DNA from: Nitrosopumilus sp.
GTDB lineage: Archaea > Thermoproteota > Nitrososphaeria > Nitrososphaerales > Nitrosopumilaceae
Assembly: GCA_965197525.1 (NCBI GenBank)
Contig: OZ240211.1
Location: 1,728,001 to 1,792,000, forward strand
Reading direction: 5' to 3'
DNA length: 64,000 bases
Below, piece by piece: positions 1-4,810 of the stretch (position 1 is its first letter; the number at the start of each line of letters is the position of its first letter). Below the pieces are notes generated by a model. It worked only from the letters and a program-made list of their open reading frames with translations. It was not told the DNA's origin and did not search any database. Made by a program: the position numbers and the translations under genes.

Positions 1-312
1 AGTATCTGGCTTTTCAAGATATGGATCAAGTCCATATTTGTCATCAAATATTATATCGCCTATTTCTGTGCTGACCATAGTCGTGTTTGCACCAGAACCA
101 CATGCTTCCATTATCTTGTTTGCACGTCCCCAGAATTTTATTGCTCGAACCATGTTTTTTCCAACACCTAGTTTTACTGTGGTATCCTCACGTTTGAATA
201 TTGAAGGATCGTCTTGTATCTGATCATATGCTTTTTTGAGCCATCCGTATCTGAGATGAAACGATTCGTGGTTTGCAAATGTAGGTTTTGGTATGGCCTC
301 TGTAACTAACAT
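1..312 (-). CDS. sspB: DUF4007 family protein, SspB-like (N-terminal part; runs off the window edge)
   Basis: Not in the ORF track. Manual translation from ATG at 312: MLVTEAIPKPTFANHESFHLRYGWLKKAYDQIQDDPSIFKREDTTVKLGVGKNMVRAIKFWGRANKI...GLDPYLEKPDT. It carries the DUF4007 motifs F-x-x-HE-x-F-x-LRYGWLKK, LGVGKNMVRAI-x-FW and DPYLE. The start abuts the desulfurase stop (TAG-ATG). Confidence 0.85.
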   Translation of the reverse strand, partial: MLVTEAIPKPTFANHESFHLRYGWLKKAYDQIQDDPSIFKREDTTVKLGVGKNMVRAIKFWGRANKIMEACGSGANTTMVSTEIGDIIFDDKYGLDPYLEKPDT

Positions 313-1473
313 CTATCTCAGATTCTCCGTAATCTCTGCCTCTTTTTTTCGTACAAACTCTGCTGCTTGTGCAATGTCTATTGCAGCAGTTTCAATGTCT
401 TTCATCTCCGTATGTCTTCCAACAGATACGCGGATTGATTCGTCTGCTGCAGTACGATCTAGTCCCATTGCGGTAAGTACATGTGATGGTTCCATCGTAT
501 TAGAAGAGCATGCACTTCCTGATGAGATTTCAATATGTTTAGTATTAACAATCACTGCGTCTGATTGTGCACCGTGTATTCTTATACTTGATGTATTTGG
601 AAGGCGTTCTGTATTCTCGCCGTTTATCGTTACATTTGAAATGAGAGATTTTATTCTTGATTCTAAATTATCGCGCAGTACCAACAGTTTTGCTGACTCT
701 TTTGGAATTATCTCGTATGCAATCTGGCATGCCTTGCCGAATCCCACGATTCCAGAAACATTTTGTGTGCCACTGCGCAGGCCTTTTTCCTGTCCTCCCC
801 CATAAATCAACGGAGTCATGCTTTTCCGTATATGACGTGATGCCACAAATGCGCCTACTCCCTTGGGACCATACATCTTGTGGCTACTGCAGGTGGAAAT
901 ATCTATTCCAAGGTCATGAATGTCGACTGGAATCTTACCTGCAGCTTGTGTAATATCGCTGTGAAGTATGGCGCCTGCATCATGGACAATCTTGGATATC
1001 TCCTTTATGGGGTTTATCACTCCGGTCTCGCTGTTTGCAAGCATTATGGATACCACGTCAGTTTCTGGCTCTATCTTTTCGCTTAATACATCAAGGTCTA
1101 TTACTCCATCAGATTTTACGGGAATTACAAATATTTCTGATCCGAATCGTTTCATAAAGTTGCATGGCTCAATGACAGACTTGTGTTCTGTAGCACCATA
1201 TAATATGCGGTGATTGTTTTCTATGTTCAGTCCAATTCCGGCTATTGCCATGTTGTTGGCCTCTGTAGCTCCGGATGTAAAGATGACGTCCTCCTTGTCC
1301 GCACCAATTAATATCGCTAACTTCTCTCTTGCGTCATCTATCAAATCCATTGCGTCCATTCCTGAGTCATGTGTGCTAGATGGGTTTCCAAATTTTTTTT
1401 TGAACACTGGAATCATTTCATCAATTACTCTTTGGTCTACTGGAGTTGTGGAATTGTAATCTAGATATACCAT
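313..1473 (-). CDS. sspA: IscS/NifS-type cysteine desulfurase, probable SspA of a DNA phosphorothioation cluster
   Basis: MVYLDYNSTTP N-terminus (ATG at 1473), FTSGATE, PLP lysine motif SSHKMYGPKG, catalytic Cys in SSGSACSS. The sspA label is inferred from the adjacent DUF4007 gene. Confidence 0.85.
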   Translation of the reverse strand: MVYLDYNSTTPVDQRVIDEMIPVFKKKFGNPSSTHDSGMDAMDLIDDAREKLAILIGADKEDVIFTSGATEANNMAIAGIGLNIENNHRILYGATEHKSVIEPCNFMKRFGSEIFVIPVKSDGVIDLDVLSEKIEPETDVVSIMLANSETGVINPIKEISKIVHDAGAILHSDITQAAGKIPVDIHDLGIDISTCSSHKMYGPKGVGAFVASRHIRKSMTPLIYGGGQEKGLRSGTQNVSGIVGFGKACQIAYEIIPKESAKLLVLRDNLESRIKSLISNVTINGENTERLPNTSSIRIHGAQSDAVIVNTKHIEISSGSACSSNTMEPSHVLTAMGLDRTAADESIRVSVGRHTEMKDIETAAIDIAQAAEFVRKKEAEITENLR

Positions 1474-1876
1474 TACATATGTTCTAAACCCGTCACAATT
1501 AAAGTATTTGAGATTTTCAGCTAAGCAAAATATACTTTGATTTAGGCCAAATCTGACAAGAATGAAGCAGATCAGTAAGGGTACGACCCTCCTGGTTTTT
1601 GTTGTCGAGACATAAAACCAAGCCGGGCCGTGACCTATCGAACAATTCCGAAATATATACGGTCTCGTATTTTTATCACGTTTTTTACTCATTAAGCCAG
1701 CGCGAGATCCGTGATCTTTAAGTTTTTCACTGATTTTGAATCAAAAATTTGGACAACGCCATCCAAAGCAACTGAAAAGTAGTTGTCTGGATCAATTTCT
1801 GATCTTTACTCTTCTTGGTTCCAGCTCTAAATGTCAAGATTTGAACACTTGATTCTTGTTTCAAGTCTTATGAACT

Positions 1877-3382: not shown

Positions 3383-4810
3383 TGTGGGATCCCGAAAGTA
3401 GTTCGCCCCTCTTCAAAACTTGGAGATGTTTGCATGTATGATGTTCTAGAGTGTTGTATAACTCTCTTGCGCTAAATTCCACTATACAATTCATGAATTT
3501 TATTCATTTCCACTCCACGCATGGCAACTATTCAAAAAATTATGTATAGTATCCACTAAGGATAACATCTGTTTTGATATCATAATGTTACTCTACACTG
3601 TACTCTTGACCTGTTTGACTATCTGTCACCGTCTTGCCAGCAGGTGGCATCTTTCTCTTAAATGCCTGTACCGGAGTCTCTAGATTGTCCCAGTCAAGTG
3701 ACATATGCGGTCTGTTGTAGTTGTACCATTCCATGAACCGTTCCACGGGATCCTTTGCAGATGCGGTGTAAAACGGTCCTCCTACACTAGAGTTCTCTGT
3801 TGTACCACGTCGAGTCTTGCCAGCTGAGGCACCTTCAAAGTGGCCTAGTTTGCGCTGTATCTCTCCGTGCAGACGTTCTAGTTTACCATTTGTCTGTGGA
3901 TGTCGTACACGTGCCAATATGTGTTTGATGTCAAGTTCCACCAGTCTTTGTTCAAATTTGGAGGCACCCTTCTTCTTGGCCTCAGACTCTGTGGCATAGA
4001 ACTGGGTACCGCGATCTGTCAGGATTGATGCAGGCTTGCCGTGATTTTTTATGGCCTCATCAAGTACCTTTAGGGCGTTTTCTGTAGTTGCCTCTGCAAA
4101 TACCCCAAAACCAGTCACAAAACGTGAAGCGTCATCCTGGTAACATATGAGCCATCTGCCATCGTCAAGCTGTTTGAAATCAGTATGCCACAGGGAATTG
4201 GAGTAAGTTCGTTCCCACCTAACCCACTTGCGCCTCTTGCTCTTGTTTGGACTGGCATCTACATAATCTGCATCTTTCAATACTTTGTGTATAAAGTTGT
4301 GCGCAATATACATTCCTACAGATGATCTTATGACGCGCTCCAAGGTTGCAGCTCCTCGAATCTCGTTTGCTATTGCTGAGAGAATCACAGAGTGTTCTAG
4401 TCGTCCGGGCGCACTCTTTTTGGGTCTTCCCATTGGGGCAGGATACACTATCTTGTCTGCATCTTTGTATCTCTTGTGCAGCTTTTGAACCCATCTGACA
4501 GAGACGTTCATCTTTGCTGCAATCTCTCTGTTACTGGCAGTATTCTTGCGTTTTTCTCTGATAATCCATTCCACTTTGGACAAGTCAAGTTTTTTCATTA
4601 CTCGTACTCTCCGTCTTCCTATATAACGCCACACAGTAGAGCGTCTCCATCTGCGGACCCACACACCGCTGTTTCCAGTAATGGACAAGTTGACTGTGTC
4701 TTTCATAGATTTTACATGGGATGCCATGCCGCTGAAAAAATCGGTCATGGAACACGCCCACCTAGGCTATGAGCCTGATGTGAGGGGTGAACTACTTTCG
4801 GGACAATACA
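3383..4810 (-). mobile_element. IS481-family insertion sequence, intact, 29-bp TIRs, 15-bp TSD
   Basis: Left IR TGTGGGATCCCGAAAGTAGTTCGCCCCTC (3383-3411); reverse complement of right IR TGTATTGTCCCGAAAGTAGTTCACCCCTC (4782-4810). TGT...ACA ends. Identical CAATCACATAACATT at 3368-3382 and 4811-4825. Confidence 0.92.
3588..4598 (-). CDS. IS481-family DDE (rve) transposase
   Basis: N-terminal HTH (EIAAKMNVSVRWVQKL). DDE triad in WHTDFK, ILTDRGTQF and NGKLERLH. Probable ATG at 4598; an in-frame ATG also exists at 4748. Confidence 0.92.
   Translation of the reverse strand: MKKLDLSKVEWIIREKRKNTASNREIAAKMNVSVRWVQKLHKRYKDADKIVYPAPMGRPKKSAPGRLEHSVILSAIANEIRGAATLERVIRSSVGMYIAHNFIHKVLKDADYVDASPNKSKRRKWVRWERTYSNSLWHTDFKQLDDGRWLICYQDDASRFVTGFGVFAEATTENALKVLDEAIKNHGKPASILTDRGTQFYATESEAKKKGASKFEQRLVELDIKHILARVRHPQTNGKLERLHGEIQRKLGHFEGASAGKTRRGTTENSSVGGPFYTASAKDPVERFMEWYNYNRPHMSLDWDNLETPVQAFKRKMPPAGKTVTDSQTGQEYSVE

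What the first reader, a model, noticed from the sequence alone, without database searches (positions are those of the whole stretch)
1..1473. Probable SspA-SspB DNA phosphorothioation locus in an ammonia-oxidising archaeon
Seen: a complete cysteine desulfurase whose TAG is immediately followed by the ATG of a DUF4007 gene that the ORF track missed. Established: SspABCD systems use a desulfurase (SspA), a DUF4007 nickase (SspB), an ATPase (SspC) and a PAPS reductase (SspD) to make single-strand phosphorothioate marks, with SspE as the antiphage effector. The archaeal PT system I know as characterised is Dnd/Pbe, not Ssp. DUF4007 also occurs in type 4 BREX. Inference: sspC and sspD (possibly sspE) lie just left of the window.
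Basis: partly seen in the sequence, partly recalled or inferred. Interest (0 to 1): 0.75.

Follow-up and report, generated by a model that had tools for sequence, protein, structure and literature searches.

The report
Broken archaeal Ssp phosphorothioation operon
The window's left edge holds the start of a real sspABCD DNA-sulfur-marking operon in an ammonia-oxidising archaeon, but sspB and a neighbouring ATPase gene are both knocked out by small insertions, so the system is probably dead in this strain.

Summary
A 386-aa cysteine desulfurase (window 313-1473, minus strand) ends in TAG directly before the ATG of a DUF4007 gene that runs off the window.

In the genome, sspC (1108 aa), a 190-aa unknown gene and sspD follow on the same strand. 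No PglZ and no SspE were found. The desulfurase groups with ssp-linked enzymes, not with the housekeeping IscS-like paralogue.

New points:
- **sspB is broken.** A net 69-nt in-frame insertion carries a TGA. It is a patchwork of three colinear pieces copied from a transposase gene 200 kb away.
- **A GHKL ATPase gene after sspD is broken.** A 33-nt insertion adds TAA-TGA inside its ATP-binding motif.
- **The locus sits in a 32-kb variable island.** Congeners carry ssp at other chromosomal positions.
- **The likely partner is a GHKL ATPase plus SF2 helicase pair**, often with a PLD nuclease and a YwbE-Schlafen protein. Among 301 related genomes, 17 of 21 with DUF4007 have this GHKL, against 3 of 280 without. 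The pair also flanks ssp in 29 of 75 bacterial loci.

Earlier first-stage notes of this scan on overlapping windows of the same genome flagged the same cluster and both insertions.

Verdict: a known kind of system with an apparently undescribed partner, decayed here.

The parts
313..1473 (-). sspA, an ssp-linked cysteine desulfurase (386 aa). It is intact, with the PLP lysine (SSHKMYG) and the catalytic cysteine (SSGSAC) kept.
   Evidence: It is 39% identical to the genome's housekeeping IscS-like paralogue. It lies in the ssp-linked clade (support 0.98), apart from the housekeeping clade.
1..312 (-). The first 104 codons of sspB (DUF4007). The gene continues left of the window to genome position 1727293. 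An in-frame TGA lies at genome 1727818-1727820, inside a net 69-nt insertion.
   Evidence: An intact congener orthologue matches solved SspB (PDB 6JUF/6LB9) at 5.5e-49.
1474..1876 (.). Region upstream of sspA, with short dispersed repeats (about 1662-1760, five further copies in the genome; about 1520-1630, one further copy).
3588..4748 (-). IS transposase (rve integrase core, 386 aa) at the right edge of the variable island. Conserved core synteny with congeners resumes near window 4946.

Best explanation
This is the 5' end of a genuine Ssp-type DNA phosphorothioation operon, sspA-sspB-sspC-(190-aa ORF)-sspD. It lies in a 32-kb variable defence island of a Nitrosopumilaceae ammonia oxidiser.

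By analogy with the characterised bacterial system, the intact version should work as follows (inferred, not shown). SspA takes sulfur from cysteine. SspD, a PAPS-reductase-fold ATP pyrophosphatase with an SGGKDS motif, together with SspB (triple-wHTH DNA binder and nickase) and the large SspC ATPase, places sulfur on one DNA strand at a short motif.

The restriction partner is not SspE or SspFGH. The best candidate is the adjacent module of a GHKL (MORC-like) ATPase and an SF2 helicase, usually joined by a single-HKD PLD-like nuclease and a YwbE-Schlafen protein. This module co-occurs with ssp across archaea and bacteria.

In this genome the system is most likely inactive. sspB carries an in-frame TGA inside a templated insertion copied from a transposase gene. 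The GHKL gene carries TAA-TGA inside a 33-nt insertion that splits its GRFGVGM ATP-binding motif. One gene of each half is broken while every other gene stays open. That pattern is what recent joint decay of a modification-restriction pair would leave.
For: - **Operon identity.** PADLOC SspA, SspB, SspC and SspD score 3e-135, 1.6e-53 (N-terminal half) plus 1.6e-23 (C-terminal half), 1.6e-296 and 5.6e-109. Pfam gives DUF4007 and PAPS_reduct. SspC has the Walker A motif GPYGSGKST. SspD has SGGKDS. A congener SspB matches PDB SspB at 5.5e-49.
- **SspA is accessory.** It is 39% identical to the genome's own IscS-like gene. That gene is 76% conserved in congeners, including ssp-less G013. Trees place AOA ssp-linked SspA and SspC in one clade next to ssp-linked bacterial proteins.
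- **sspB break.** The gene reads as 164 codons, TGA, then 174 codons in one frame. There is a 23-codon insert relative to two congeners. The insert consists of exact 23-nt, 12-nt and 41-nt colinear copies of the transposase gene at genome 1926928-1928241.
- **GHKL break.** An 11-codon insert with TAA TGA sits at the conserved GRFGVGM motif.
- **Island.** Core synteny with G013, G299 and G274 stops at about genome 1,700,600 and resumes at about 1,732,950. The ssp loci of G299 and G274 sit elsewhere in their chromosomes.
- **Partner module.** It is adjacent in most of the 17 AOA loci surveyed. In 301 family genomes the counts are DUF4007 plus GHKL 17, DUF4007 only 4, GHKL only 3, neither 277. 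Helicase plus GHKL lie within 10 kb of ssp in 29 of 75 bacterial loci.
Against: - No chemistry was done. Phosphorothioate marks are not shown in any of these archaea.
- The breaks rest on a single assembly. Both sspB halves are singletons in the protein collection and reads could not be inspected.
- The C-terminal sspB piece begins with its own ATG, so two half-proteins could in principle be made.
- Linkage of the GHKL-helicase module to ssp is correlative, and related genomes are not independent samples.
- The SspA sequence alone does not separate SspA from DndA, IscS or NifS. NCBIfam scores are all below cut-off. The closest solved structures are IscS-type enzymes rather than Vibrio SspA.
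Confidence: 0.8

Rival explanations
1. The locus is still functional. Possible routes: the TGA in sspB is read through; the two SspB halves are made separately and assemble; the assembly shows an error or a minority variant; or modification proceeds without the GHKL protein.
For: All other genes are open and full length. The insertion is in frame. The distal half starts with ATG. The breaks are seen in a single assembly only.
Against: No recoding signal was found. The RNA fold of the insert is no more stable than shuffles (z = 0.35). The insert is foreign DNA copied from a transposase gene. It sits inside the conserved DUF4007 body, between profile positions 143 and 169. A second gene of the same island has an independent stop-bearing insertion in a catalytic motif.
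Confidence: 0.18
2. The GHKL-helicase-PLD genes are an independent defence system that merely shares defence islands with ssp. The archaeal sspABCD would then be an orphan epigenetic modification module with no restriction partner.
For: 83.9% of bacterial sspBCD clusters lack SspE or SspFGH, and orphan modules were proposed (PMC8092258). Three AOA genomes have the GHKL without DUF4007 and four have DUF4007 without it. MORC-like GHKL plus SFII helicase modules pair with methylases elsewhere (PMC2292703).
Against: Co-occurrence is 17 of 21 against 3 of 280 across at least nine genera. The genes are physically adjacent in varied orders and orientations in archaea, Actinomycetota, Poribacteria and Acidimicrobiia. 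No methylase gene was identified among the G000 cluster ORFs scanned.
Confidence: 0.25
3. This is a type 4 BREX system, which also uses DUF4007, a BrxC-like ATPase and a PAPS reductase, rather than Ssp.
For: SspC also hits BrxC (4.8e-99) and SspD hits BrxP (6.7e-11). The components are homologous (PMC12839542).
Against: No PglZ match was found in the 99%-complete genome, while the control genomes rang. No ORF of PglZ or BrxL size is in the island. The SspC and SspD models score far higher than the BREX models. DUF4007 is a separate gene, not fused to the PAPS reductase.
Confidence: 0.02
4. The desulfurase is the housekeeping Fe-S enzyme and only happens to lie next to DUF4007.
For: The best NCBIfam and PDB matches are NifS and IscS types.
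Against: A separate IscS-like gene (76% conserved in congeners) and a SufS-like gene exist elsewhere in the genome. The ssp-linked copy was found in the four ssp-bearing genomes searched and not in ssp-less G013. It forms its own clade with bacterial ssp-linked enzymes. Stop and start codons abut or overlap in all loci.
Confidence: 0.02

Closest known systems
SspABCD-SspE of Vibrio cyclitrophicus, E. coli 3234/A and Streptomyces (Xiong et al. 2020, cited in PMC8092258 and PMC9646914)
   Same: The four modification genes are the same and in the same order. SspB matches the solved SspB. SspC is a roughly 1100-aa ATPase. SspD is a PAPS-reductase-fold protein with SGGKDS.
   Different: There is no SspE (DUF262 plus DUF1524) in the locus or the genome. 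An extra 190-aa ORF lies between sspC and sspD. The host is archaeal. sspB is disrupted here.
SspBCD-SspFGH of Vibrio anguillarum (PMC8092258)
   Same: A modification module is paired with a multi-gene ATPase-containing partner that, in that system, damages unmodified DNA. Joint loss of both halves here would fit that logic.
   Different: The paper describes SspF with a Walker A motif and SspH with an FtsK-like C-terminus. Here the neighbours are a GHKL ATPase, an SF2 helicase, a PLD-like protein and YwbE-Schlafen. No SspFGH sequences were available for direct comparison.
DndCDEA-PbeABCD of haloarchaea (PMC6459918)
   Same: It is an archaeal phosphorothioate-based defence. PbeA combines PLD, ResIII and helicase domains. 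The helicase here hits the PbeA helicase region (1.5e-20) and a PLD-like gene is adjacent.
   Different: The modification module is Ssp, not Dnd. PLD and helicase are separate genes. The partner is a GHKL ATPase instead of the SMC-like PbeC. No PbeB or PbeD equivalents were identified.
MORC/paraMORC restriction-modification operons (Iyer, Abhiman and Aravind 2008, PMC2292703)
   Same: A GHKL ATPase, an SFII helicase and an HKD (PLD) nuclease occur together as a predicted restriction unit.
   Different: Those operons pair with DNA methylases. Here and in many bacteria the neighbour is the phosphorothioation module. The family assignment among MORC and paraMORC1-5 was not tested.

Membership tests
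SspABCD phosphorothioation module | Cysteine desulfurase (SspA) with PLP lysine and catalytic cysteine, encoded next to sspB | tested here: met
   (HK and GSAC motifs kept). The stop and start codons abut. The protein lies in the ssp-linked clade.
SspABCD phosphorothioation module | SspB: a DUF4007 protein homologous to solved SspB | tested here: met
   Pfam DUF4007 scores 6.9e-48 and 9.6e-20 on the two halves. An intact congener orthologue (67-69% identical) hits PDB 6JUF/6LB9 at 5.5e-49.
SspABCD phosphorothioation module | All four genes intact, so that a functional system is possible | tested here: not met
   sspB has an in-frame TGA within a 69-nt insertion. sspA, sspC and sspD are full length.
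SspABCD phosphorothioation module | SspC: a large ATPase with a Walker A motif | tested here: met
   PADLOC SspC scores 1.6e-296 over the full length. The GPYGSGKST motif is present.
SspABCD phosphorothioation module | SspD: a PAPS-reductase-fold protein | tested here: met
   PADLOC SspD scores 5.6e-109 and Pfam PAPS_reduct 3.7e-10. The SGGKDS motif is present.
SspABCD phosphorothioation module | Single-strand phosphorothioate at a short motif in genomic DNA | not testable with these tools
   Needs LC-MS/MS or iodine-cleavage sequencing.
SspE effector | A DUF262 (GmrSD_N) plus DUF1524 protein of about 750 aa next to sspBCD | tested here: not met
   No PADLOC SspE hit among the neighbours. The only DUF262 protein in the genome is a 359-aa DUF262-HNH next to an EcoRI-like methylase, 1.15 Mb away. 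tblastn with S. yokosukanensis SspE finds nothing in the genome. Positive control: that SspE scores 3.3e-297.
SspFGH effector | A three-gene module: SspF with Walker A, SspG, and SspH with an FtsK-like C-terminus | tested here: inconclusive
   The domain content of the neighbours differs from the published description (PMC8092258). No SspFGH sequences or models were compared directly.
BREX type 4 | PglZ (and BrxL) alongside BrxC, PAPS reductase and DUF4007 | tested here: not met
   There is no PglZ match in the genome. No ORF of suitable size lies in the island.
PbeABCD | A PbeA fusion of PLD, ResIII and helicase, with an SMC-like PbeC | tested here: not met
   The helicase matches only PbeA profile positions 248-602. 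The PLD-like gene is separate. The partner ATPase is GHKL, not SMC-like.
MORC/paraMORC-type restriction operon | A GHKL ATPase linked to an SFII helicase and a nuclease | tested here: met
   HATPase_c_3 scores 5.2e-19 on the intact orthologue, with a weak PLDc_2/DrmC signal and an HxK...GNVSN motif. ResIII plus Helicase_C are found, with motifs I, II (DEAH), III and VI. The S5 domain and subfamily were not tested.

The most novel reading that the evidence does not exclude
The SF2 helicase plus GHKL ATPase pair, with PLD nuclease and in archaea and Poribacteria a YwbE-Schlafen protein, may be an undescribed phosphorothioate-dependent restriction partner of SspABCD. It would be shared by ammonia-oxidising archaea, sponge-associated bacteria and many Actinomycetota. 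That would account for a sizeable share of the 'orphan' sspBCD clusters. The paired knock-outs of sspB and the GHKL gene in this genome would then be the footprint of losing an addictive modification-restriction pair. Both lesions carry the signature of templated-insertion break repair, a mutational mode little documented in archaea.
Probability: 0.45. Interest if true: 0.7.

Novelty: new variant of a known kind. Interest (0 to 1): 0.5.

Why it matters
Phosphorothioation in ammonia-oxidising archaea has so far been discussed as Dnd-type (PMC7848895, PMC12780485, PMC6459918). I found no paper in the held library that reports Ssp-type systems in this group.

This locus shows that a distinct Ssp lineage has spread within Nitrosopumilaceae. 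Many of its closest relatives carry names of sponge-associated lineages, and one Poribacteria copy nests inside the archaeal clade.

More generally, Wang et al. (PMC8092258) left open what the 84% of sspBCD clusters without SspE or SspFGH pair with. The helicase-GHKL module found here next to ssp in both domains is a concrete, testable candidate. It could be tested in Streptomyces yokosukanensis DSM 40224 (named in the record title), which carries ssp, SspE and this pair.

The two lesions also give a clean natural example of templated insertions as a gene-inactivating mechanism in an archaeon.

Tried and rejected
- **Selenocysteine, readthrough or archaeal intron for the sspB TGA.** Rejected. 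The insert is a copy of transposase-gene pieces and its RNA fold is no better than shuffles.
- **IS insertion or MITE as the source of the insert.** The pieces come from inside the transposase ORF, not from element ends, and only one full-length donor copy exists. Insertion followed by several deletions cannot be excluded but needs more steps.
- **BREX-4.** Rejected.
- **Housekeeping IscS.** Rejected.
- **SspE elsewhere in the genome.** Not found.
- **The 190-aa ORF between sspC and sspD.** The ESM Atlas call failed. Homologues sit at the same place in three other archaeal loci.
- **tRNA or integrase at the island borders.** No tRNA lies within 20 kb to the left, and the nearest is 16.7 kb into the window.
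- **G013's side of the hotspot as a way to find the left border.** It shares nothing with this genome. The border was then found from the core side.
- **Inverted repeats around the apparently inverted sspC segment in L045.** None convincing.
- **Failed scripts.** Two script calls failed for machine reasons and were rerun.
- **Literature.** Ahlgren et al. 2017 and Xiong et al. 2020 are not held, so their gene maps could not be checked.

Full report
**1. What is at the coordinates**

All of the following is on the minus strand.

- Window 313-1473 encodes a 386-aa class-V PLP enzyme. It scores Pfam Aminotran_5 1.5e-80, PADLOC SspA 3.4e-135 and DndA 2e-134. NCBIfam NifS, IscS and DndA models all score below their cut-offs.
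- Its TAG (313-315) is followed at once by ATG (310-312).
- That ATG opens a frame that runs to base 1. It matches the first third of DUF4007 (2.1e-32) and PADLOC SspB (1.1e-36).
- The genome has archaeal amoA. It is a single 2.21-Mb contig, 99% complete, and the window is positions 1,728,001-1,792,000.

**2. What lies beyond the window edge**

I fetched the 18 kb to the left as L002, where L002 position minus 18,000 equals the window position. On the same strand follow, in order:

- The rest of sspB.
- sspC: 1108 aa, PADLOC SspC 1.6e-296, Walker A GPYGSGKST. Its ATG overlaps the sspB stop.
- A 190-aa ORF with no family match.
- sspD: 279 aa, PADLOC SspD 5.6e-109, Pfam PAPS_reduct, SGGKDS motif.
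- A GHKL ATPase gene (HATPase_c_3).
- An SF2 helicase: ResIII plus Helicase_C, with motifs I, DEAH, III and VI intact.

Converging on these from the other strand are two more genes. One is a YwbE(DUF2196)-Schlafen/AlbA_2 fusion. The other is a PLD-like protein with one HxK...GNVSN motif and weak PLDc_2 and DrmC matches.

**3. Tests of the rival readings**

*BREX type 4.* There is no PglZ match in the genome, although the control genomes rang. No ORF of PglZ or BrxL size lies in the island.

*SspE.* None of the neighbours hits the PADLOC SspE models. The genome's only DUF262 protein is a 359-aa DUF262-HNH beside an EcoRI-type methylase 1.15 Mb away. tblastn with a bona fide SspE finds nothing in the genome. 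That query SspE scores 3.3e-297 against the SspE model.

*Housekeeping desulfurase.*
- The genome has a separate IscS-like gene at 794,719-795,909, only 39% identical to SspA, and a SufS-like gene.
- The IscS-like gene is 76% conserved in congeners, including G013, which has no ssp.
- The ssp-linked copy was found in the four ssp-bearing genomes searched and not in G013.
- In a FastTree phylogeny the ssp-linked desulfurases of 15 archaeal loci form one clade (support 0.98). A Poribacteria sequence nests inside it. This clade sits next to ssp-linked enzymes of marine bacteria and away from the housekeeping clade (support 1.0).
- An SspC tree is congruent.
- The PLP lysine and catalytic cysteine are kept.

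**4. sspB is broken**

The frame runs 164 codons, then TGA, then 174 codons. Two congeners have uninterrupted 318-aa proteins that are 68-69% identical. Against them, this gene has 23 extra codons exactly around the TGA, between DUF4007 profile positions 143 and 169.

The extra DNA is not random. It contains:
- 23 nt identical to genome 1,928,183-1,928,161;
- 12 nt (GCAGTTTTGAGC) identical to 1,927,739-1,927,728, overlapping the first piece by GCA;
- four unmatched bases (TAGC);
- 41 nt identical to 1,927,705-1,927,665.

All three pieces have the same order and orientation as in the coding strand of a 437-aa DDE transposase gene. Only one full-length copy of that gene exists.

The pieces are internal to the ORF, not element ends. 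I therefore read this as a templated (template-switching) insertion at a repaired break, replacing about 8 nt. This is an inference. An IS insertion followed by several deletions is a less economical alternative.

An intron or recoding reading is not supported. The RNA fold has z = 0.35 against shuffles.

Both halves are singletons in the 15-billion-protein collection, so there is no independent assembly to confirm the lesion.

**5. The GHKL gene is broken too**

Its frame reads ...GIGRFGVV-TAA-TGA-LWVQSIYPRMTMGAINV.... Orthologues from another archaeal genus, another archaeal MAG and a Poribacteria MAG all read GRFGVGMTMGAI. The lesion is therefore an 11-codon insertion in the glycine-rich ATP-binding motif.

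The 33 nt consist of TTT, a 22-nt copy of the sequence immediately downstream, and 8 further bases. This is again a templated-insertion signature.

All other genes of the cluster are open and of orthologue length. One gene of the modification half and one of the presumed restriction half are hit. I take this as recent joint decay. It rests on a single case, so it is only circumstantial support for functional coupling.

**6. Genomic setting**

Core synteny with three congeners ends near genome 1,700,600 and resumes near 1,732,950, which is window position about 4946. The 32 kb between holds:
- the ssp cluster;
- the helicase, GHKL, PLD and Schlafen genes;
- an MBL-fold protein;
- an HNH protein;
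- an rve-type IS at window 3588-4748;
- short dispersed repeats upstream of sspA.

The same hotspot holds 6.6-12.5 kb of other DNA in G299 and G013; the G013 fill shares nothing with this genome. G299 and G274 carry ssp at quite different chromosomal positions. The cluster is therefore mobile accessory DNA.

**7. Distribution and the partner module**

DUF4007 passes the Pfam cut-off in 21 of 301 sampled genomes of the family, in a minority of the 27 genera sampled. I fetched 17 archaeal loci. Most have a GHKL ATPase and an SF2 helicase beside ssp, in two sequence variants with either gene order. About half also have the PLD and YwbE-Schlafen pair.

A search of the same 301 genomes with the intact GHKL protein, cross-tabulated with DUF4007, gives:

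| DUF4007 | GHKL | Genomes |
|---|---|---|
| yes | yes | 17 |
| yes | no | 4 |
| no | yes | 3 |
| no | no | 277 |

Relatives are not independent, but the pattern spans many genera. Three of the four genomes with DUF4007 but no GHKL have visibly damaged ssp genes: split sspD in L039, and part of sspC on the opposite strand in L045 and L048.

A scan of one genome per species with SspD returned 80 loci.
- The nearest non-archaeal relatives are Poribacteria (77%), Acidimicrobiia, Latescibacterota, Gemmatimonadota and Poriferisocius/Poriferisodalis MAGs. Many of these are names of sponge-associated lineages.
- Actinomycetota follow.
- In 29 of 75 bacterial loci, helicase and GHKL homologues lie within 10 kb of ssp. 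In 7 more only the helicase is seen, at the locus edge.
- In Streptomyces yokosukanensis DSM 40224 the pair lies divergently upstream of sspA, while a canonical SspE follows sspD.
- The archaeal loci show at most weak SspE-like fragments.

**8. Comparison with what is known**

- The modification half is a member of the SspABCD family by every sequence criterion I could test. The chemistry is untested.
- The partner is not SspE.
- It does not fit the published description of SspFGH (Walker A protein plus an FtsK-like protein; PMC8092258).
- It is not PbeABCD. PbeA is a PLD-ResIII-helicase fusion and PbeC is SMC-like (PMC6459918). The helicase here matches only the PbeA helicase region.
- Architecturally it is the GHKL plus SFII helicase plus HKD nuclease type of predicted restriction operon described by Iyer et al. 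2008 (PMC2292703). Here it is paired with phosphorothioation instead of methylation.

Literature searches found Dnd-type phosphorothioation discussed for Thaumarchaeota (PMC6459918, PMC7848895, PMC12780485, and citations of Ahlgren et al. 2017). They found no report of Ssp in this group and none of a GHKL-helicase partner for Ssp. The library lacks the two key subscription papers, so this absence is weak evidence.

**9. Verdict**

This is an ordinary family in a new host group, so on its own it is of modest novelty.
- Added value: the system is decayed in this genome by two unusual templated insertions, and the source of one was traced.
- Added value: ssp in these archaea and in many bacteria travels with an apparently undescribed helicase-GHKL(-PLD-Schlafen) module, which is a testable candidate for the missing restriction partner of 'orphan' Ssp systems.

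No claim in this report rests on the unpublished genome G093. It gave only a sub-threshold DUF4007 match.

Noticed in passing
G000:C1:1926928-1928241 (L025:764-2077, minus strand), outside the window: A 437-aa DDE_Tnp_1 transposase gene that is the donor of the three pieces inserted in sspB. It is the only full-length copy. Partial copies at 85-91% identity lie at about 574.4-575.4 kb and 1967.2-1967.8 kb, and diverged paralogues elsewhere.
   Followed up: partly
L002:11740-11800 (genome about 1721740-1721800), outside the window: Both lesions (sspB and GHKL) are in-frame insertions built from copied sequence plus a few unmatched bases, and both contain the string ATCCACGA. Whether they share a mechanism or a cause, for example self-inflicted breaks, is open.
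   Followed up: partly
window 1520-1760: Short dispersed repeats lie upstream of sspA. One of about 95 nt (window about 1662-1760) has five other copies in the genome. Similar elements are multi-copy in congener G110.
   Followed up: partly
L045:4941-8667 and L048:4629-8784: In two large-genome relatives (G071, G089) the C-terminal third or so of sspC matches on the opposite strand to the N-terminal part. This suggests an inversion inside the gene. No clear flanking inverted repeats were found, and both genomes lack the GHKL homologue.
   Followed up: partly
L044 (G239:C14): A same-genus genome carries a second, very divergent ssp lineage. SspB and SspC are about 25% identical, the gene order is sspB-C-D with sspA on the opposite strand, and it falls outside the main archaeal clade in the SspC tree.
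   Followed up: no
L053 (Candidatus Poribacteria MAG, CBDAOT010000007.1): This locus has the full archaeal-type arrangement: sspABCD, GHKL, helicase, PLD and YwbE-Schlafen. Its SspA and SspC nest inside the archaeal clade, which suggests archaeon-to-bacterium transfer.
   Followed up: partly
L034:8557-10242 (G001) and L002:3835-4923: A 561-aa HNH_2 protein is inserted on the opposite strand between the 190-aa ORF and sspD in G001. A distant 362-aa HNH relative lies elsewhere in this genome's island.
   Followed up: no
L115 (Streptomyces yokosukanensis DSM 40224, NZ_KQ948230.1): This sspABCD-sspE locus also has the helicase-GHKL pair divergently upstream of sspA.
   Followed up: partly
L130:883-2930 (genome about 581.5-583.6 kb): A DUF262-HNH protein is translationally coupled to an EcoRI-type adenine methyltransferase. 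This is a separate restriction-modification-like pair.
   Followed up: no
L049:17193-18983 and L034:12816-13169: Weak SspE-like similarity (28-31% over about 90-130 residues) occurs inside two archaeal ssp loci. These may be remnants or distant DUF262/DUF1524 relatives.
   Followed up: no
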